DNA from: a virus
Reading direction: 5' to 3' (one strand)
UHGV virus genome: UHGV-0153413
Length of the DNA stretch: 14,300 nt
Below the pieces are notes generated by a model, which ran no database searches, was not told the DNA's origin, and saw only the letters and a list, made by a program, of their open reading frames with translations. Positions 2,286 to 12,449 of the stretch are shown here, piece after piece; within the stretch, counting starts at the first letter, position 1, and each line of letters starts with the position of its first letter. Made by a program: the position numbers and the translations under genes.

Positions 2286-2781
2286 GGCTTTTAACAGCAA
2301 CATGCTTAACTTTCTCAACACGTTTACGCATTTTGAAAGCATTTTGCATTGGCTGGTATAAAACAAATAATGACGCTTTCAGGATGTCGTCAATTTCGTT
2401 TCTACAGGTTGCCAGTGAAGGTTTTCTCCATCCCTCGCCACCACGTCCACACATCTTGCGTGGCTTTGCAGTCGCGTGATAGTAGGATGCAATTGCTCGC
2501 TTAGATGAACCATGAGCGTAGTAGCTGAGGAGGATGCCAAAGGCTTTCTTGTCAATGTACATGACGGAATCGACGACCTGAGAAATCAACATTCCATCAT
2601 CATCATTACACATTGGCCTTGTCATAACTCTTCCCGGCTCTACGCTCTCCATGAACTTCGCTATTACGCTGCTCATGCGCTTTTCCAGACGACCTGAATA
2701 AACCCATGCGCCCCACAGTTCAAGCCAGCCATTCAGCCACTCATGCTGTTCTTTGGTGAGGTTTAGTTCTCTTATGCCCAC
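2263..2781 (-). CDS. Q: Late-gene antiterminator Q (not the lambda Q type)
   Basis: 172-aa ORF immediately upstream of the late promoter and S, in the Q position after ninI. GTG start with RBS GGGAGAAGG, overlapping the ninI stop. Does not resemble lambda Q as recalled, so it likely belongs to another Q family (21/82/P22 gp23-like); family not determined. Confidence 0.7.
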
Positions 2782-3443
2782 GCGCCTTCTCCCTGTACCT
2801 GAATCAATGTGAGGTTTCCGCAGAACACTGCGCCGGTATCGATATACATCTGGTTGGAAAACTTGAGTGGTTTCACTGCTGGCGTATGACCAAAGATGAA
2901 CGTGTCCGTGCCTTTGATTTCTTTCACGATCCCGTCTTGTGAGTTGCTGATTCGTTCGCGGTTCCAGATTACCTGCTGATGATCAACTGGCTTTCCAAAC
3001 TCGTATTCGTCACAAGGATAATCGGCGTGGCAGATGACATATTTTTTATCTTTGCTCACCAGTTCGATGATTAACGGAAGTTCATCTGCTTTATGGGCAA
3101 GAGCTTTAGCCAGAATTTCTTTGTCGTAATCGAGATTAAAGAACCAGCCACCGCCATTAAGCATCCAGTGATTGACGTTTCCGCGCTCTGATAAGCCATC
3201 AATCATCATTTGCTCATGGTTTCCACGTACAGCTCTGAACCAGGGGAATGTGATTAATTCCAGGCATTCGACGTTCTCTGTACCGCGATCGACCAAATCG
3301 CCAACCGAGATAAGCAGGTCTTTTTTGGTGTCGAATCCTATCGTCTCCAGTTTTTTCATCAGGTTCGTGTAGCATCCGTGCAGATCGCCAACTACCCAAA
3401 TATTTCGGTATTTGCTGCCATCAATTCTTTCGTAATAGCGCAT
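2772..3443 (-). CDS. ninI: NinI Ser/Thr protein phosphatase (lambda PPase)
   Basis: [29 protein letters not shown]...GNHE... carries the calcineurin-like metallophosphatase motifs GDLHG, GDLVDRG and GNHE. Near-identical to lambda orf221 from memory. ATG at 3443..3441 with RBS GGAG; the 248-aa track ORF is an upstream extension. Confidence 0.9.
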
Positions 3444-4404: not shown

Positions 4405-4804
4405 GGCTTTCACCATTAAAAAGTCGCTTGTAAGCATCAATGTCTCGTTTTGCTTCACCAAGCTTTCGTCTTAATTCCATGTTTTCTGATTCAAGCTTTT
4501 CCATGTCTTGCTGGTATCGATCGCGGTGTTCTTTCCATGCTTTTCGATACGCCTTCATGTATGTCGTATTGGCCTTTCTCTTTGCCTGACGAACTGCGTG
4601 GTGGTTTTTCACAAACCAGTCAGGGTCGTTAAATGCTGCTCTGGCGCATGTATACCAATAATTTGTTGCCTCCCTGTTTAGCCAATAAATACTGATAAAT
4701 GGCAACTGGATAGACACCATTTTTCGTTGAGACTCTTTCTCGCCAAACATGTGCCCTTTTTTGATGCTAAGGCCAAATCCAGGTTGAATTAAAAGCATTG
4801 TCAT
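4397..4804 (-). CDS. Hypothetical protein in the NinX position (between ninE and ninF)
   Basis: 135-aa [28 protein letters not shown]... Its ATG overlaps the ninE stop (ATGA). Lambda has no gene here; P22-like nin regions carry ninX at this spot. Homology to NinX not verified. Confidence 0.5.
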
Positions 4805-4977
4805 TTCCTCGCACGATGTCTTAGCCACCGGATATCCCACAGGTGAGCCGTGTAATTGAAGGTTTTTACGTCAGATTCTTTTGGGATTGGCTTGCGTTTA
4901 TTTCTGGAGCGTTTCGTTGGAAGGTATTTGCAGTTTTCGCAGATTATGTCGGTGATACTTCGTCGCTGTCGTCTCAT
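4801..4977 (-). CDS. ninE: NinE
   Basis: Internal start [51 protein letters not shown]... matches lambda NinE from memory. Confidence 0.8.
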
Positions 4978-5384
4978 TCGTACCTCCTGTCGGTAAATCT
5001 GACACCCTGACCAATAGCCCATGCTGTCGTGTACTCAATCAGGCTTGCCATGCGCTTCACGCTCATCTGCGCGCTACTTTCGCGAATGTTGACGTATTCG
5101 CCTTCAAGCCCGGGCAAAACATCAGCTTCCTGCTTTGTTGCCACTGCATGACCGCTGATCAACAAAACCTTCCATTGTTCTGGTTTTAACCATTTATCGC
5201 ACCATTGAACCTGACGTGCGATATCCGCCAGCATCGCGTGAAATTTTGCGTTCTGGTCAAGGTTGCGCTTGTAGTCAGTAATGCGGATGGTGACTGGCTT
5301 GTCTTTATCGAGTGGTGTTGCGAGGATGGCATTTATTGCAGCTTGCTGTTGTTGCTTAGTTCGGAGGAAGATTGTTTGCTTCAT
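4974..5384 (-). CDS. ninB: NinB (Orf family recombination mediator), divergent from lambda
   Basis: 136-aa ORF with NRSLDQN-like core ([29 protein letters not shown]) similar to lambda NinB/Orf as recalled. Sits in the ninB position. Confidence 0.7.
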
Positions 5385-5386
5385 CG

Positions 5387-5779
5387 TTACTCCTTCACTT
5401 TGACTCCAGCAGCGCGGATGGCGCTCTGCACCTCGCTTACATACAGATATGGGGTTCGCCCACTATGCATGGTAAAGCTTTCAGGAAGCTCAATCTCGAT
5501 AGCTGCTCGCGATGCCTGCCACGTTTGCCAGTGGCCTTGAACATCGTCCATCACGTATTGACCACCAATATTACCGCTGCCAATTTCATGGTGATTTTCA
5601 GGGTAACGGATAAGGTCTGAAGATTCGCCCCCACGTCGTAACCAACTCTCTTCAAACTGGCATCTGCTTTCGTCATCTTTCATAAGGCAGTCACATTCAA
5701 TAAAAATCGGCTCTCCCCAAGAAGTAGAACCTCCGCTATCACACATTCCTGTGTTATTGCACTTTTGGCACTTGCTCAC
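5387..5779 (-). CDS. Hypothetical Cys-rich protein (putative zinc-binding)
   Basis: 130-aa ORF, GTG start preceded by RBS GGAGG at 5-nt spacing. N-terminal CQKC...C...ECDC cysteine cluster. No family recognised. Confidence 0.55.
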   Translation of the reverse strand: MSKCQKCNNTGMCDSGGSTSWGEPIFIECDCLMKDDESRCQFEESWLRRGGESSDLIRYPENHHEIGSGNIGGQYVMDDVQGHWQTWQASRAAIEIELPESFTMHSGRTPYLYVSEVQSAIRAAGVKVKE

Positions 5780-8784: not shown

Positions 8785-8828
8785 TCCCGCATTTCGGCGG
8801 GAATGAGGACCATGACTGTTAAAGAGCG
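8785..8828 (-). promoter_or_regulatory. nutR (boxA CGCTCTTTAA plus boxB hairpin) between cro and cII
   Basis: Minus strand CGCTCTTTAAcagtcatggtcctcatTCCCGCCGAAATGCGGGA. The boxB hairpin (6-bp stem UCCCGC/GCGGGA) is identical to the one in nutL. Confidence 0.6.
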
Positions 8829-9058: not shown

Positions 9059-9126
9059 AGAATACTACAGGTATTCAAAACAATCAATACTCAGGGTATT
9101 TTTAGTTTAAGTACCTTAGCTATTAG
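9059..9126. promoter_or_regulatory. OR region: three operator dyads with divergent pR (toward cro) and pRM (toward cI)
   Basis: Operators gaatactacaggtattc (9060-9076, perfect dyad), aatactcagggtatt (9086-9100) and the weaker aagtaccttagctatta (9109-9125), centres 24-25 bp apart. pR on the minus strand: -35 TTGATT (9087..9082), 17 bp, -10 TATTCT (9064..9059). pRM candidate -10 TATTAG (9121-9126) only 9 nt before the cI ATG with no SD, so cI is probably leaderless as in lambda. Confidence 0.65.
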
Positions 9127-9135
9127 AATTAAGCT

Positions 9136-9852
9136 ATGGAAAATAAAAAATCACTGACGACAGAACAGCTCGAAGACGCTAAGCGGCTTAAGGCTTTGTA
9201 TGAGTCAAAAAAGAAAGAATTGGGAATAACCCAATACTCAATCGCTGATGAACTGGGTATCACCCAAGGAGCGGTAGGGCATTATCTTAATGGCAGAAAC
9301 GCGCTAAACGTTGAGGTTGCATCTGGTTTTGCACGACTGTTGCAAGTCTCAATTGCTGATTTTAGCCAGTCAATTGCTGCCAAGGTTGCAGAACAGGCAG
9401 AAAGCCTTAAGAGCGATGCCAACGTAAGGTATGCAGGGGAATACAGAGCAGGAAAGAGGTATCCGGTGTTAAGCAGTATCCAGGCTGGCTCGTGGTGTGA
9501 AGCATGCGAACCATACACCATTAAAGACATAGATGTTTGGCTTGAGTCTGACGCGCATATTCAAGGTAATGCGTTTTGGCTTAAAGTGGAAGGTGATTCA
9601 ATGACGGCACCGGTTGGGTTAAGCATTCCAGAGGGAACATTCGTTCTTTTCGATACCGGAAGGGAGGCGATCAACGGCAGCTTGGTCATAGCAAAACTTT
9701 CTGACTCTAACGAAGCAACATTCAAGAAGCTGATAATCGACGGCGGAAATAAATACCTCAAGGGACTTAATCCTGCATGGCCTCTCGTGCCAATCAATGG
9801 AAACTGCAAGATTATAGGCGTTGCAATTGAGACAAAACTAAGGCTGGTTTGA
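9136..9852 (+). CDS. cI: CI repressor (HTH-XRE N-domain plus S24 LexA-like autopeptidase C-domain)
   Basis: 238-aa ORF. HTH region QYSIADELGITQGAVGHYLNG, Ala-Gly (SIQAGSW) candidate cleavage site, catalytic Ser in GDSM and Lys in FKKL. Divergent from cro across the operators. Confidence 0.9.
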   Translation: MENKKSLTTEQLEDAKRLKALYESKKKELGITQYSIADELGITQGAVGHYLNGRNALNVEVASGFARLLQVSIADFSQSIAAKVAEQAESLKSDANVRYAGEYRAGKRYPVLSSIQAGSWCEACEPYTIKDIDVWLESDAHIQGNAFWLKVEGDSMTAPVGLSIPEGTFVLFDTGREAINGSLVIAKLSDSNEATFKKLIIDGGNKYLKGLNPAWPLVPINGNCKIIGVAIETKLRLV

Positions 9853-9869: not shown

Positions 9870-10238
9870 ATGGTTGGAACCGCTATAGCAAGCTTTTTTG
9901 GGATGTTGGCAATCTCGACAATTTACGTCTTAGCGCATGCTTTTATTGCGAAATCTCTATCAGAAAAAATAAGCCAGGCTTGGGCGCATAGATCAGCTCG
10001 TTTCATGATTCTTGTGATCATAGCAATACAAGGGATATCTGCATTTATCCTCTATGTATCAAGCTTATACCTATTGTATCAAGGCGCGACATTTACGCCT
10101 TACACCAGTGATTACGGAACTCTATACGATGGTAGTGAAGACATCACTGTGGCTTGGATCGTCTTTGGTTTATCTATGGCCGTGTCTGTTGTAGCAGACA
10201 TCATTAAGGTAATTCTCGTCTTAACCTTCGCTGACTAA
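9870..10238 (+). CDS. Predicted 3-TM membrane protein in the rex position (cotranscribed with cI)
   Basis: ATG 9870 with RBS AAGGGG (a TTG at 9849 overlapping the cI stop is an alternative start). Three hydrophobic helices. Sits between cI and OL/pL, where lambda has rexA-rexB. No recognisable similarity to RexB as I recall it. Confidence 0.6.
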   Translation: MVGTAIASFFGMLAISTIYVLAHAFIAKSLSEKISQAWAHRSARFMILVIIAIQGISAFILYVSSLYLLYQGATFTPYTSDYGTLYDGSEDITVAWIVFGLSMAVSVVADIIKVILVLTFAD

Positions 10239-10323
10239 CCCATAATCCCGGCAGCAATAGCTATCGGGATCCACTTCACATATCCCGCATAAAAATCACT
10301 GAACAAGCAGACAGCGAAAAAAT

Positions 10324-10418
10324 AAATATCCTTTGTATTCATTTGTTTATCATTATTTCATCAAAAATAAATACCTTGGGTATTTACACAATAAAATACC
10401 TACAGTATTCTTTAGCCA
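10324..10418 (+). promoter_or_regulatory. OL operators and pL promoter
   Basis: Operators aaataccttgggtattt (10369-10385) and aaatacctacagtattc (10394-10410) share half-sites with OR; a possible distal site aaatatcctttgtattc (10324-10340). pL: -35 TTTACA (10383-10388), 17 bp, -10 TATTCT (10406-10411). The downstream sequence ATCAGCAGGACGC matches the start of the lambda pL transcript as recalled. Confidence 0.6.
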
Positions 10419-10457
10419 TCAGCAGGACGCTGGAAGCCAAACGGAACAGATTGGCAG

Positions 10458-10498
10458 GCTCTTTAACATTGATGGGATTGTCCCGCCGAAATGCGGGA
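10458..10498 (+). promoter_or_regulatory. nutL (boxA GCTCTTTAA plus boxB hairpin)
   Basis: gctctttaa (10458-10466), 14-nt spacer, boxB tcccgc/cgaaat/gcggga (10481-10498), identical to nutR boxB. Lies about 40 nt downstream of the predicted pL start. Confidence 0.6.
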
Positions 10499-10765
10499 AC
10501 CAAAGAGTAGTTGGCTTTGGGGTGTGGTGAAGCCAGCTAGTCACTGGCAAGTGCTTACCTACTGTTGAGCGGTGAAGCGCTCCCAACGCTAGCAATAGCG
10601 TGGACGAGATGGGGAGCCGCGGGCGATAAGGCCGCCATAACGCGCACGTTGTCGCATGGAAAAATCGCTGGGGTGCCGGTTATACCCCTCCGAATGAGAC
10701 TCAACAAGCTGGAGCTAGACTACCAGCCACCACACCACCAAAGCTAATCATCTGAGGAACAGAAA

Positions 10766-10885
10766 ATGTTAGACATCATGACCAACCCAATTCTCGGTGG
10801 TTTAGTTACCACATTCGCCATCTGCTTCGGTTTCACTATCTGGTCTGAAGTAGATGACTGGATGTGGGAACGCAAAAACAAATAA
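10766..10885 (+). CDS. Small single-TM peptide ORF (39 aa) in the N leader
   Basis: Hand-translated: RBS GAGGAA 8 nt before ATG 10766, MLDIMTNPILGGLVTTFAICFGFTIWSEVDDWMWERKNK, stop TAA 10883-10885. One hydrophobic helix then a charged tail. Below the ORF-track size cut-off. Confidence 0.4.
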   Translation: MLDIMTNPILGGLVTTFAICFGFTIWSEVDDWMWERKNK

Positions 10886-10925
10886 TCATCGACACACAAG
10901 GATGTGCACCTACCCGGAGGTCAAC

Positions 10926-11198
10926 ATGACAGTAGTCATTACATATCTGGCTGACGATAACACCAGAAATCGCCGCAGAGCACGCAGACAGGCTCAACGT
11001 GAACAGGCAATGCAAGAGCAGCGACTGGCGCGAAAAATTGCGCTAAAGCTCTCTGGTTGCGTCAGAGCAGATAAAGCAGCATCACTCGGAAGCCTTCGCT
11101 GCAAGAAGGCAGATGAATGCAGCGGAAGTATTTGCCTGCCAAACGTAGCCATTTACGCGGCAGGCTACCGGAAATCAAAACAACTGACAGCGAGGTAA
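10926..11198 (+). CDS. N: Antiterminator N (arginine-rich motif)
   Basis: ATG 10926 with RBS GGAGG at 5 nt. N-terminus MTVVITYLADDNTRNRRRARRQAQREQ carries an arginine-rich boxB-binding motif like lambda and P22 N. First gene after pL/nutL. The 114-aa track ORF is an upstream extension. Confidence 0.75.
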   Translation: MTVVITYLADDNTRNRRRARRQAQREQAMQEQRLARKIALKLSGCVRADKAASLGSLRCKKADECSGSICLPNVAIYAAGYRKSKQLTAR

Positions 11199-11201
11199 GT
11201 G

Positions 11202-11426
11202 ATGAATCAGACATACATTCCATCATGCTTGAGAAATCTGCCAAAGCAGAAAGCAAAGCCCAGCAAGCAAGCCATAAAGGACGCTAAGGCAGAGGTTATT
11301 GATCAAGCAATACAATTGCTCAGGAAGGAGTTAAGAAGTGGCAAGCTCGAAGGAATGATGATGCCCTATCAGCGCGGATATCTATCGGCGATTAGTAAGT
11401 TGGAAGTATTGAAGAGTGAATTATGA
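11202..11426 (+). CDS. Hypothetical 74-aa protein immediately after N (the ral position in lambda)
   Basis: ATG 11202 follows the N stop by 3 nt. Basic N-terminus and predicted helical C-terminus. No similarity to lambda Ral as recalled. Confidence 0.55.
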   Translation: MNQTYIPSCLRNLPKQKAKPSKQAIKDAKAEVIDQAIQLLRKELRSGKLEGMMMPYQRGYLSAISKLEVLKSEL

Positions 11427-11488
11427 ACTATCTGGAATTTCCGGATGGTTCATTGTTTTGGCAGCAAACCACTTATTTTAGGTGATAT

Positions 11489-11938
11489 ATGGAAGAACAA
11501 GCAAACAAGATTCTCGTAGAACTATTGCAAAAAGCCAGTAATGGAATAGACGCGGCTGTTTCATTTAGCCAGGCACAGATTCCTGATGTTATCCATCAGT
11601 TGCTGCTATGGAATATGGTTGACAGTCTGATTAAAACATTAATAGCCATTCTAACAATCCCACTGGTTTTCTGGTTTATGAAGAAGCAGTGCCAAAGAGT
11701 TGAGATAGGTAAAATCGGTAATGAAGGATATTCATGGGAGAAGGGAAATCCCAAATACAGGCCGACAATGGTTTGGGATAGCAAAGGTGATATTAATCTT
11801 CTTATCATGCCATTGGTTGGAGTTTTGACTCTGTGGGGGATTTTTATTATTGGTGCAGTAACCAATATGACTTGGTTAAAAATTTGGCTGGCCCCAAAGC
11901 TTTACCTTATCGAATATGCAGCATCATTGGTTAAGTAA
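11489..11938 (+). CDS. Hypothetical 149-aa membrane protein (2 predicted TM) in the sieB position
   Basis: RBS AGGTGA 5 nt before ATG 11489. Hydrophobic helices LIKTLIAILTIPLVFWFM and LLIMPLVGVLTLWGIFIIGAV. Followed by a strong terminator. A superinfection-exclusion role is inferred from position only. Confidence 0.6.
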   Translation: MEEQANKILVELLQKASNGIDAAVSFSQAQIPDVIHQLLLWNMVDSLIKTLIAILTIPLVFWFMKKQCQRVEIGKIGNEGYSWEKGNPKYRPTMVWDSKGDINLLIMPLVGVLTLWGIFIIGAVTNMTWLKIWLAPKLYLIEYAASLVK

Positions 11939-11942
11939 TTTC

Positions 11943-11968
11943 AGGCCGCATAGTCGGCCTTTATTTTT
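11943..11968 (+). terminator. Rho-independent terminator (tL-type) after the 149-aa membrane gene
   Basis: aggccg / catagt / cggcct followed by ttattttt. Confidence 0.7.
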
Positions 11969-12087
11969 GGCATAAACAACAGAATAAACACTGCACTGTG
12001 TATTCATTCCAACGAGTGAATACACGGAGCAATGTCACTCGTAACTAAACAGGAGCCGACTTGTTCTGATTATTGGAAATCTTCTTT

Positions 12088-12112
12088 GCCCTCCAGTGTG
12101 AGGGCGTTTTTA
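12088..12112 (+). terminator. Rho-independent terminator (tL-type) upstream of cIII
   Basis: gccctc / cagtgt / gagggc followed by gttttta. Confidence 0.65.
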
Positions 12113-12177
12113 TATGCATACCAATAACGCTTCAATTGAGGCGTTTTCGTTATGCAATCAAACAGAAGGAGTTACCC

Positions 12178-12312
12178 ATGATGCACTTTCAGTTAGCGGG
12201 TAGCGGCGTCATGTCCGCTTTCTACCCGCACGAATCTGAATTATCACGCCGAGTTAAACAATTAATCAGAGCAGCAAAGAAACAACTGGAGGCATTATGC
12301 GCAATGAAATAG
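12178..12312 (+). CDS. cIII: CIII-like protease inhibitor (44 aa)
   Basis: RBS AAGGAG then ATG 12178. MMHFQLAGSGVMSAFYPHESELSRRVKQLIRAAKKQLEAL parallels lambda CIII (AIAGWPVAGCPSESLLERITRKLRDGWKRLIDIL) as recalled, including the central amphipathic helix. Confidence 0.55.
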   Translation: MMHFQLAGSGVMSAFYPHESELSRRVKQLIRAAKKQLEALCAMK

Positions 12313-12449
12313 CCATTAATCACCAGATGCTTCGTGCAGCACAAAACAAAGCAGTAATAGCCAGATTTATTGGTGATTCAAAAATGTGGCTTGAAGCAAA
12401 TAAAGCGATGAAATCAGCTATCAACCTTCCGTTGTATCGCAGGAAATGA
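12297..12449 (+). CDS. kil: Kil-like small protein (50 aa; FtsZ-inhibitor family in lambda)
   Basis: RBS GGAGG then ATG 12297. MRNEIAINHQMLRAAQNKAVIARFIGDSKMWLEANKAMK resembles lambda Kil (…IATFIGDEKMF…) as I recall it. Overlaps the cIII 3' end. Confidence 0.5.
   Translation: MRNEIAINHQMLRAAQNKAVIARFIGDSKMWLEANKAMKSAINLPLYRRK

What the first reader, a model, noticed from the sequence alone, without database searches (positions are those of the whole stretch)
11202..11938. Two-gene accessory module (74-aa soluble ORF plus 149-aa membrane protein) in the N to cIII hotspot
Lambda carries ral and sieB between N and cIII, a known anti-restriction and exclusion hotspot. This window has instead two unrelated ORFs with good RBSs, bounded downstream by two intrinsic terminators. 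The 74-aa product is basic then helical; the 149-aa product has two predicted TM helices. Neither resembles Ral or SieB as I recall them. By position they are candidates for an anti-defence and exclusion pair.
Basis: partly seen in the sequence, partly recalled or inferred. Interest (0 to 1): 0.65.

Follow-up and report, generated by a model that had tools for sequence, protein, structure and literature searches.

The report
Two unlinked phage accessory genes
The two small genes after the phage N gene are real and conserved, but they are two unrelated, separately mobile accessory genes of unknown function rather than a working pair; the membrane one belongs to a very large uncharacterised phage protein family.

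Summary
Both ORFs (74 aa, 11202-11426; 149 aa, 11489-11938) have ribosome-binding sites, evolve under purifying selection and are followed by terminator hairpins. The 149-aa product has two hydrophobic helices. Neither resembles Ral or SieB.

The "two-gene module" reading does not hold:
- Each gene occurs mostly without the other. Among 5,426 complete E. coli genomes, orf74 is in 145, this orf149 allele is in 130, and both lie together in 6.
- In other phages each one sits next to Ral, and orf149 also next to SieB, so neither replaces them.
- Both have relatives in strictly virulent phages, at unrelated accessory positions.

orf149 is a homologue of Sf6 gp34 (PHROG 3054), a family of at least 2,587 sequence clusters. 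Its plan is a conserved acidic N-terminal 41 aa, a transmembrane hairpin with a hypervariable loop, and a conserved C-terminal helix. orf74 (PHROG 5305) is a basic tail plus a helical hairpin.

No sequence or fold search links either protein to any characterised protein. In this window both lie on the N-antiterminated PL transcript with no promoter of their own, so they are probably lytic-phase genes, not prophage-expressed ones. Their function remains unknown. An exclusion role at the cell envelope for orf149 is a guess at about 25-30%.

The parts
10383..10411 (+). PL-like promoter (TTTACA-17-TATTCT), overlapped by the repressor operators AATACCnnnGGTATT
   Evidence: Promoter scan. Operator repeats at 10325-10339, 10370-10384 and 10394-10408, with matching copies at OR, 9060-9100.
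10458..10497 (+). nutL-like site: boxA GCTCTTTAACA (10458-10468) plus a boxB-like 5-bp hairpin (10482-10497)
   Evidence: The boxA pattern occurs exactly twice in the window: here, and at 8817-8827 on the minus strand, which is the nutR position. Hairpin seen in the fold. The interpretation as nut sites is inferred from lambda biology.
10926..11198 (+). N antiterminator gene (context: first long gene of the PL operon)
   Evidence: Pfam N_peptide, E 7.4e-15; phrog_271.
11202..11426 (+). orf74: small basic soluble protein with a disordered basic tail and a helical hairpin; PHROG 5305, function unknown
   Evidence: RBS GAGG at 11192-11195, immediately before the N stop codon.
11423..11453 (+). 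14-bp RNA hairpin over the orf74 stop codon, followed by UGUUUUGG. Candidate tL1-like terminator or processing site; it marks the 3' end of the orf74 cassette.
   Evidence: dG -20.8 kcal/mol, z -4.5, and weaker on the minus strand (-13.5). orf74-only phages share DNA up to about 11505.
11489..11938 (+). orf149: two-transmembrane-helix inner-membrane protein, homologue of Sf6 gp34; PHROG 3054, function unknown. Layout: N-terminal motif 1-41, TM1 about 42-64, loop 65-103, TM2 about 104-126, C-terminal motif 127-149.
   Evidence: RBS AGGTGA at 11480-11485.
11943..11968 (+). Intrinsic-terminator-like hairpin with a T-run directly after orf149; it travels with the orf149 cassette
   Evidence: orf149-only phages share DNA from about 11457 to at least 11960, the end of the query. 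The 3' flank 11873-11975 is 86% identical to Sf6.
12087..12145 (+). Two further terminator-like hairpins (12087-12106 and 12126-12145) just before cIII. By position they match the site that the Sf6 record annotates as a homologue of lambda tL2A.
   Evidence: dG -28.3 kcal/mol, z -5.3; Sf6 annotation.

Best explanation
The region holds two unrelated, independently mobile single-gene accessory cassettes, sitting side by side in the N-proximal mosaic hotspot of a lambdoid PL operon.

**Expression (inferred)**
- Both are transcribed only as part of the N-antiterminated delayed-early transcript: PL, nutL, N, orf74, hairpin, orf149, terminators, cIII, kil.
- They would therefore be made during lytic growth or induction, not in the repressed prophage.

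**orf74 (PHROG 5305)**
- A small, basic, presumably cytoplasmic protein: a disordered Lys/Arg-rich tail followed by a helical hairpin.
- Probably translationally coupled to N.

**orf149 (PHROG 3054, the Sf6 gp34 family)**
- A two-helix inner-membrane protein.
- The selected parts are the acidic N-terminal 41 residues and the amphipathic C-terminal 23 residues.
- The transmembrane hairpin and its loop behave as a freely variable anchor.
- Charge distribution predicts that both termini face the periplasm and the Lys/Arg-rich loop faces the cytoplasm.

**Function (guess)**
- The family occurs alone, at many different accessory positions, in both temperate and virulent phages of Proteobacteria. 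It most likely acts on its own at the inner membrane or periplasmic face, on a conserved envelope target.
- My preferred guess, at about 25-30%, is that it protects the infected cell's envelope, for example by blocking secondary DNA entry in the manner of T4 Imm.
- The biochemical function of both proteins is not established.
For: **Shown: gene map**
- cI, PL with operators, nutL, N, orf74, orf149, terminators, cIII, kil.

**Shown: independent inheritance**
- orf74 without orf149 in mEpX2, ECP1, mEp213 and JEP4; orf149 without orf74 in HF4s, Gally and Oslo.
- In E. coli complete genomes: 145 with orf74, 130 with this orf149 allele, 6 with both.
- In 160 viral loci the two are adjacent in only about 5. 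orf149 follows N, ral, Sf6 gp36, sieB (minus strand) or orf74. orf74 always follows N and precedes ral, gp17, ea10, gp33 or cIII.

**Shown: orf149 family**
- A profile search finds 2,587 representatives of 50%-identity clusters.
- All share the plan of N-terminal motif, TM, variable loop of 10-75 aa, TM, C-terminal motif.
- dN/dS: N-terminus 0.07, C-terminus 0.05, loop 0.18, TM2 0.78.
- Against Sf6 gp34, only the 5' 133 nt and the 3' 103 nt align at the DNA level.
- The family is present in virulent phi92-like and N4-like phages, in Vibrio phages and in a Ralstonia jumbo phage.
- In other prophages it lies after the spanin gene, between terminase and portal, or after a NinG-like gene.

**Shown: orf74 family**
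- Relatives in virulent siphoviruses, and as the first ORF annotated after a consensus-like promoter, with no N gene annotated, in the early-left region of HK225.

**Inferred**
- Topology, from 110 family members: the N-tail has net charge -3.8, and 2.2 K/R fall in the first 8 residues after TM1.
- No sigma-70-like promoter on the plus strand between PL and 12451.
Against: - There is no experimental or homology evidence for any function. Pfam, NCBIfam, PADLOC, PDB sequence searches and Foldseek all return nothing.
- The promoter scan is a crude consensus match and could miss a weak or non-sigma-70 promoter, so expression in the lysogen is not excluded.
- The topology rests on the positive-inside rule alone. 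The C-tail has net charge +2, which is atypical for a periplasmic segment.
- The AlphaFold2 model of orf149 is only moderately confident (pLDDT 70).
- Known exclusion proteins are usually narrowly distributed and fast-evolving. This family has motifs conserved across orders of bacteria, which fits a conserved host target better than recognition of an incoming phage.
- Adjacency in six E. coli genomes shows that the pair can travel together. A functional interaction in this particular phage cannot be formally excluded.
Confidence: 0.6

Rival explanations
1. One reading: orf74 and orf149 form a functional two-gene module, with an anti-restriction or anti-defence protein plus a membrane exclusion protein, that substitutes for ral and sieB.
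For: They are adjacent and co-oriented in the hotspot where lambda carries ral and sieB. The window lacks ral and sieB. The same adjacent pair occurs in 6 E. coli genomes.
Against: - Only about 4-5% of occurrences of either gene have the other next to it.
- A ral remnant lies between them in strain GPEC1446.
- orf149 homologues coexist with ral and sieB, and orf74 with ral.
- A strong hairpin separates the two genes.
- Each family occurs alone in virulent phages.
- There is no similarity to Ral or SieB.
Confidence: 0.05
2. orf149 is a prophage-expressed superinfection-exclusion or abortive-infection protein, working like SieB, RexB or SieA and protecting the lysogen.
For: It is a small inner-membrane protein in a known exclusion hotspot. 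In some prophages and phages the homologue is an isolated opposite-strand gene inside the structural module, which is the classic moron arrangement.
Against: - In this window it has no detectable promoter of its own. It lies downstream of PL, nutL and N, on the same strand, and behind a terminator-like hairpin.
- The family is common in strictly virulent phages, which have no lysogen to protect.
- hhalign against SieB (lambda and P22) and SieA gives probabilities below 1%.
- A different membrane protein, at 9870-10238, occupies the cI-linked rex slot.
Confidence: 0.07
3. orf149 is a lysis-timing factor (holin, antiholin or lysis regulator) that acts with the holin, endolysin and spanin system.
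For: It has two transmembrane helices, like class II holins and the N4 gp62 regulator (paper PMC12642591). In Proteus and Providencia prophages the homologue overlaps the end of the Rz-like spanin gene, directly after holin and endolysin.
Against: - In this window it is 10 kb from the complete S/R/Rz cassette (546-1763) and sits in the early operon.
- Most contexts have no lysis genes nearby.
- The region after the lysis cassette is itself an accessory hotspot in P22-like prophages.
- There are no holin Pfam hits, and hhalign against N4 gp62 and gp63 gives probabilities below 1%.
Confidence: 0.12
4. orf149 and/or orf74 are host-takeover or counter-defence factors. On this reading orf149 binds and inhibits a conserved host inner-membrane or periplasmic protein or a membrane-bound defence system, and orf74 is a small cytoplasmic inhibitor, for example of a restriction or other nucleic-acid-targeting defence, or a modulator of N or transcription.
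For: - Both are made early in the lytic programme.
- Both occur in virulent as well as temperate phages.
- The orf149 motifs are conserved across Enterobacterales, Vibrio, Pseudomonas and Burkholderiales phages, which suggests a conserved target.
- orf74 has the size and shape typical of phage inhibitor proteins, a basic tail plus a helical hairpin. In lambdoid phages it always sits directly after N.
Against: There is no similarity to any known anti-defence protein or PADLOC-listed partner. Neither protein's peptide strings were found in the supplementary files of the Silas et al. accessory-gene screen, PMC12373910. The argument rests on position and shape only.
Confidence: 0.25

Closest known systems
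Shigella phage Sf6 gene 34 protein (NP_958210) and the 'TM helix-containing protein' HF4s_0037; PHROG 3054
   Same: True homologues in the same slot, at the end of the N-proximal segment and before the site annotated as a tL2A homologue. HF4s_0037 is 95% identical. Sf6 gp34 is 49% identical overall, with a near-identical N-terminal 40 aa and C-terminal 25 aa.
   Different: The Sf6 allele carries a completely different TM-loop-TM centre that cannot be aligned at the DNA level. None of these proteins has an assigned function.
Lambda and P22 SieB (abortive superinfection exclusion)
   Same: A membrane protein encoded in the same N-to-cIII hotspot.
   Different: - No sequence or profile similarity.
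- sieB is transcribed antisense to the PL operon; the P22 record annotates its own promoter, and the P22 SieA paper lists it among prophage-expressed genes. orf149 is co-oriented with N and the scan found no promoter for it.
- SieB and orf149 homologues coexist in the same phages.
T4 Imm, P22 SieA and HK97 gp15 (inner-membrane blockers of phage DNA entry)
   Same: Small inner-membrane proteins that act alone. T4 Imm is made early in a lytic infection (from my own knowledge). This is the closest functional analogy for my preferred guess.
   Different: No similarity: the Pfam scan gave no hit to any exclusion family, and hhalign against SieA gives probability 0.2%. Those proteins are narrowly distributed, whereas PHROG 3054 spans many phage families and host orders. 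No DNA-entry phenotype has been tested.
Lambda Ral (restriction alleviation)
   Same: A small soluble protein of about 66-74 aa, encoded just downstream of N in the PL operon.
   Different: No similarity. Ral and orf74 occur together, in the order orf74 then ral, in several phages. orf74 is therefore not a positional substitute for Ral.
Phage N4 gp62 (two-TM lysis regulator) and class II holins
   Same: Two transmembrane helices and a similar size.
   Different: hhalign probability below 1%. gp62 lies next to the endolysin gene and its termini are predicted to be cytoplasmic (PMC12642591). orf149 is not linked to lysis genes here, and its termini are predicted to be periplasmic.
Morons: autonomous accessory cassettes of tailed phages (Juhala/Hendrix concept, from my own knowledge)
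   Same: Presence/absence polymorphism between otherwise near-identical genomes, conserved boundary sequences, an own terminator, and occurrence at unrelated genome positions.
   Different: In this window neither cassette has a detectable promoter of its own. Both depend on PL and N read-through.

Membership tests
PHROG 3054 / Sf6 gp34 family (orf149) | Full-length profile match | tested here: met
   phrog_3054, E 9.1e-64, residues 1-149. Ten distant relatives all hit the same PHROG.
PHROG 3054 / Sf6 gp34 family (orf149) | Architecture: conserved N-terminal motif (F-S-x-x-Q-I-P-D-V-x-x-Q-L-L-x-W), two transmembrane helices around a variable loop, conserved C-terminal motif (W-L-K-I-W-x-A-P-K-L-Y-L-x-E-Y-A-A) | tested here: met
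   Alignments A1 and A3; hydropathy; loop length 10-75 aa in 110 representatives.
PHROG 5305 (orf74) | Full-length profile match | tested here: met
   phrog_5305, E 6.7e-37, residues 1-74. 39 homologous clusters, mostly of 74 aa.
SieB superinfection exclusion (lambda, P22) | Sequence or profile similarity to SieB | tested here: not met
   No Pfam hit at E<=1 other than noise. BLASTP E>1. hhalign probability 0.3% and 0.2%.
SieB superinfection exclusion (lambda, P22) | Encoded antisense to the PL operon with its own promoter, so that it is expressed from the prophage | tested here: not met
   sieB lies on the strand opposite to N in lambda and P22, with an annotated promoter in P22. orf149 is on the N strand, and no promoter-like site was found between PL and 12451.
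SieB superinfection exclusion (lambda, P22) | Aborts growth of superinfecting phage in mid-cycle | not testable with these tools
   Needs plating and one-step-growth experiments.
Ral restriction alleviation | Sequence similarity to Ral | tested here: not met
   BLASTP E 1.4 against P22 Ral. hhalign probability 0.1%. No ral anywhere in the window.
Ral restriction alleviation | Alleviates type I restriction or enhances modification | not testable with these tools
   Needs efficiency-of-plating tests on EcoKI+/- hosts.
Inner-membrane DNA-entry blockers (T4 Imm, P22 SieA, HK97 gp15) | Sequence similarity to a known member | tested here: not met
   No Pfam family hit. hhalign against P22 SieA gives probability 0.2%. 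T4 Imm and HK97 gp15 were not compared directly; only Pfam stood in for them.
Inner-membrane DNA-entry blockers (T4 Imm, P22 SieA, HK97 gp15) | Integral inner-membrane location | tested here: inconclusive
   Two hydrophobic helices are predicted. Topology is inferred from charge bias only. There is no experimental localisation.
Inner-membrane DNA-entry blockers (T4 Imm, P22 SieA, HK97 gp15) | Blocks DNA injection by a superinfecting phage | not testable with these tools
   Needs potassium-efflux, DNA-entry or plating assays.
Holin / antiholin / lysis regulator | Similarity to a holin family, or to N4 gp62/gp63 | tested here: not met
   No holin Pfam hit. hhalign probability 0.1% and 0.5%.
Holin / antiholin / lysis regulator | Encoded in the lysis cassette next to the endolysin | tested here: not met
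   The window's S/R/Rz genes are at 546-1763, about 10 kb away in the late operon. Adjacency to Rz is seen only in two Proteus/Providencia prophages.
Moron-type autonomous accessory cassette | Presence/absence polymorphism with conserved boundaries among otherwise similar genomes | tested here: met
   (the mEpX2 slot keeps both flanks with a different insert).
Moron-type autonomous accessory cassette | Own promoter and own terminator | tested here: inconclusive
   A terminator-like hairpin follows each cassette. No promoter-like site precedes either in this window, but the scan is crude.

The most novel reading that the evidence does not exclude
PHROG 3054 (orf149, Sf6 gp34, phi92 gp220 and relatives) is an unrecognised, very widespread class of phage inner-membrane effector. 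A disposable transmembrane hairpin displays a conserved acidic N-terminal domain and an amphipathic C-terminal helix at the periplasmic face. Both virulent and temperate phages of Proteobacteria would use it to act on a conserved envelope target, for example as a generic block to secondary DNA entry or as a modulator of the envelope or of the proton-motive force. orf74 (PHROG 5305) would separately be a new small cytoplasmic inhibitor.
Probability: 0.25. Interest if true: 0.6.

Novelty: new member of a known kind. Interest (0 to 1): 0.35.

Why it matters
- **For this window:** the result removes a tempting but unsupported "anti-defence plus exclusion pair" annotation. The two genes should be studied separately, and probably as lytic-phase functions.
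- **More broadly:** orf149 belongs to a family of at least 2,587 sequence clusters, with a sharply defined plan and no Pfam, NCBIfam or PDB relative. It is carried by model phages that can be manipulated genetically (Sf6, HF4s, phi92-like BASEL phages, N4-like phages). A single well-chosen experiment could therefore annotate thousands of "hypothetical" phage membrane proteins.
- **On method:** the case shows that position in a hotspot is weak evidence of function. The same slot holds Ral, P22 gp17, a 60-aa acidic protein or this membrane protein in sister phages.

Tried and rejected
**Family and structure searches that found nothing for either protein**
- Pfam, NCBIfam and PADLOC scans, and Pfam on 10 distant orf149 relatives.
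- PDB sequence searches with profiles.
- Foldseek of the orf149 model against BFVD, which returned only an uncharacterised family member (Pseudomonas phage Bjorn), and against PDB, which returned no hits.
- Foldseek of the orf74 model against PDB, which returned only generic helical hairpins at E>1.
- The afdb50 library was unavailable.
- An Rfam scan of 10200-12400 found nothing.

**Profile comparisons with no relation (probability below 1%)**
- orf149 against lambda SieB, P22 SieB, P22 SieA, N4 gp62 and N4 gp63.
- orf74 against Ral.

**Literature**
- Searches by accession or PHROG id, by 'Sf6 gp34' and by mEp phage names gave no functional study.
- The supplementary files of the Silas et al. 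accessory-gene screen do not contain either protein's peptide strings.
- The phage L genome paper states that most early-left genes have unknown functions.

**Readings considered and rejected**
- The minus-strand 89-aa ORF inside orf149 (11596-11865) as a SieB-like antisense gene: it has no homology.
- The corresponding annotated minus-strand ORF in mEpX2: it is just the conserved flanks of the slot read backwards.
- The position after Rz in Proteus and Providencia prophages as evidence for a lysis role: that site is itself an accessory hotspot.
Full report
**What is there**

The window is the early and lysis region of a lambdoid E. coli phage or prophage, drawn in the opposite orientation to the lambda map.
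- On the minus strand: Rz, R and S (546-1763), Q, the nin genes, a DnaB-type helicase, a replication protein, cII and cro.
- On the plus strand: cI (9136-9852), a 122-aa three-TM protein (9870-10238), N (10926-11198), the two ORFs of the finding, cIII (12178-12312), kil, a Rad52/Erf-type recombinase and ssb.
- A PL-like promoter at 10383-10411 is overlapped by three copies of the operator AATACCnnnGGTATT, which recurs at OR.
- The boxA sequence GCTCTTTAACA occurs exactly twice. One copy is at 10458 on the plus strand, followed by a 5-bp hairpin (nutL). The other is at 8817-8827 on the minus strand, just downstream of cro (nutR).

The finding therefore lies on the N-antiterminated early-left transcript.

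**Check of the observation**

Both ORFs are real.
- orf74 starts at ATG 11202, six bases after GAGG and three bases after the N stop codon. orf149 starts at ATG 11489, after AGGTGA.
- Each matches a PHROG of unknown function over its full length: phrog_5305 at 6.7e-37 and phrog_3054 at 9.1e-64.
- Each has many homologues of conserved length.
- Each is under purifying selection: dN/dS is 0.21 for orf74 and 0.17 for orf149.
- orf74 has pI 9.8, with 5 K/R and no acidic residue in its first 22 aa. It is modelled with pLDDT 85 as a disordered tail plus a helical hairpin, with helices at 21-45 and 55-73.
- orf149 has two hydrophobic segments, about 39-65 and 100-130. Its model shows a helix at 2-68, a loop, then helices at 106-125 and 128-148, with pLDDT 70.
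- A terminator-like hairpin with a T-run follows orf149 at 11943-11960. Two more precede cIII, at 12087-12106 and 12126-12145.
By position it resembles lambda tL1.
- The window holds no ral, sieB, ea10 or gene 17.

**Not a pair**

- No phage record in the collection carries both genes. orf74 is present without orf149 in mEpX2, ECP1, mEp213, mEp506 and JEP4. orf149 is present without orf74 in HF4s, Gally and Oslo.
- Among 5,426 complete E. coli genomes, orf74 is in 145, this orf149 allele is in 130, and the two together are in 6. In one of those six a ral remnant lies between them.
- In 160 IMG/VR loci the two are adjacent in about five.
  - orf149 follows N, ral, Sf6 gp36, an antisense sieB or orf74, and precedes ea10, a TolA-like gp33 or cIII.
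  - orf74 always follows N directly, and precedes ral, P22 gene 17, ea10, gp33 or cIII.
- Ral occurs beside each gene in sister phages, and SieB beside orf149; Sf6 itself has the order N, gp36, ral, gp34. The two ORFs therefore do not replace Ral and SieB.
- The DNA shared with orf74-only phages ends at about 11505. The DNA shared with orf149-only phages begins at about 11457 and runs to at least 11960, the end of the query, so it includes the first terminator.
- In mEpX2 the orf149 slot keeps both flanks but holds a different 60-aa ORF.

These are two separate cassettes with conserved boundaries.

**The orf149 family**

- orf149 is 95% identical to the HF4s 'TM helix-containing protein' and 49% identical to Sf6 gp34. 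The first 40 and last 25 residues are almost identical to gp34, and the middle is unrelated. At the DNA level only 11480-11612 (95.5%) and 11873-11975 (86.4%) align with Sf6.
- A profile search of 1.84 billion representative proteins finds 2,587 clusters at E<=1e-3 and 1,206 at E<=1e-10, with lengths of 115-185 aa.
- All members share one plan:
  - a conserved N-terminal stretch of about 42 aa (...G-I-D-A-A-V-S-F-S-Q-A-Q-I-P-D-V-x-x-Q-L-L-x-W);
  - TM1;
  - a loop of 10-75 aa with no conserved sequence;
  - TM2;
  - a conserved C-terminal motif, (D/T)-W-L-K-I-W-x-A-P-K-L-Y-L-x-E-Y-A-A-x-L-x-K.
- Among close relatives dN/dS is 0.07 for the N-terminus, 0.05 for the C-terminus, 0.18 for the loop and 0.78 for TM2. 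The termini carry the function and the hairpin behaves as an anchor.
- In 110 representatives the N-tail has 1.9 K/R against 5.7 D/E. The loop has the highest K/R density, with 2.2 K/R in the first eight residues after TM1. By the positive-inside rule this predicts N-out, loop-in, C-out. That is an inference, not a measurement.

**Distribution of the orf149 family**

- Hosts include Enterobacterales, Pseudomonas, Alcaligenaceae and Thalassotalea.
- Strictly virulent phages carry it: phi92-like myoviruses (gp220), N4-like Ithacavirus and Vibrio schitoviruses, Vibrio myoviruses and a Ralstonia jumbo phage.
- Its position differs each time:
  - the early/middle region of N4-like phages;
  - next to an AAA ATPase gene in phi92;
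  - an isolated opposite-strand gene between the head-closure and tail-completion genes in Vibrio phage 115E34-1;
  - between terminase and portal, on the opposite strand, in Pseudomonas and Rahnella prophages;
  - after a NinG-like gene;
  - directly after holin, endolysin and Rz in Proteus and Providencia prophages.

This is the behaviour of an autonomous single-gene accessory function. It is not tied to lysogeny or to one stage of infection.

**orf74**

- The word-indexed search finds only 39 clusters, all in Enterobacteriaceae.
- tblastn finds relatives at 35-54% identity in virulent siphoviruses (Sasha gp03, Bas81, swi2, SeSz-2). There they sit in small opposite-strand islands beside the terminase genes.
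- In HK225 the relative is the first ORF annotated after a consensus-like promoter in the early-left region, where no N gene is annotated.
- It too is an independent accessory gene.

**Function**

- No search connects either protein to a characterised family. This covers Pfam, NCBIfam, PADLOC, PDB sequence profiles, Foldseek against BFVD and PDB, and hhalign against SieB, SieA, Ral and N4 gp62/gp63.
- Literature searches found no study of them. The phage L genome paper notes that most early-left genes have unknown functions.
- What can be said:
  - In this phage both genes depend on PL and N. No promoter-like site precedes them, and a hairpin lies between them. They are probably lytic-phase genes, unlike sieB, which in lambda and P22 lies antisense to the PL operon and in P22 has an annotated promoter of its own.
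  - orf149 probably acts alone in the inner membrane through its conserved termini, on something conserved across Proteobacteria.
- Among the candidate mechanisms I rank them as follows:
  - envelope-level protection of the infected cell (Imm-like): about 25-30%;
  - host takeover or counter-defence against a membrane target: about 25%;
  - lysis timing: about 12%;
  - prophage-expressed exclusion: about 7%;

**Novelty and interest**

- Near-identical copies of both genes are already deposited and annotated as hypothetical proteins, and both sit in PHROG families. The window therefore adds new members of known but uncharacterised accessory-gene families in a well-known mosaic hotspot.
- The pair hypothesis, which gave the finding its appeal, is not supported.
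- The remaining interest lies in the size, sharp architecture and total lack of annotation of the orf149 family, and in its presence in tractable model phages.
- Overall interest: 0.35.

Noticed in passing
window 9870-10238 (+), or from TTG 9849: A 122/129-aa protein with three hydrophobic segments (phrog_6534, unknown function). It starts at or overlaps the cI stop codon, in the slot where lambda has rexA/rexB. It is probably co-transcribed with cI from PRM, which makes it a better candidate for a lysogen-expressed exclusion function than orf149.
   Followed up: partly
window 10766-10885 (+): A 39-aa hydrophobic ORF (MLDIMTNPILGGLVTTFAICFGFTIWSEVDDWMWERKNK) with RBS GAGGAA, lying in the long leader between nutL and N. 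It matches phrog_7482 (E 8e-25) but is present in only 1 of 160 related viral loci.
   Followed up: partly
window 11423-11453 (+): A strong 14-bp hairpin over the orf74 stop codon (dG -20.8 kcal/mol, z -4.5; weaker on the minus strand), followed by UGUUUUGG. It is a possible tL1-like terminator or RNA-processing site between the two cassettes.
   Followed up: partly
L004 (phage mEpX2, PV340544) 2752-3021 (-) and 2791-2973 (+): The annotated minus-strand 89-aa 'hypothetical protein' looks like a mis-call. Its two ends are the conserved flanks of the orf149 slot read backwards. A plus-strand 60-aa acidic ORF uses the same RBS and start position as orf149.
   Followed up: partly
window 8817-8827 (-) and 10458-10468 (+): The boxA-like sequence GCTCTTTAACA occurs exactly twice in the window, at the positions expected for nutR (after cro) and nutL (after PL).
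   Followed up: yes
L002 (E. coli GPEC1446 prophage) 1837-2500: An HNH endonuclease gene sits where the 5' part of N should be, leaving only a 75-nt N remnant, yet orf74, a ral remnant and the orf149 homologue downstream are intact.
   Followed up: no
L178 and L179 (Rahnella and Pseudomonas lundensis prophages), about 4760-5520: The orf149 homologue lies on the opposite strand between the terminase and portal genes. It is bracketed by GC-rich terminator-like hairpins, the downstream one bidirectional in L179, and no promoter-like site was detected immediately upstream.
   Followed up: partly
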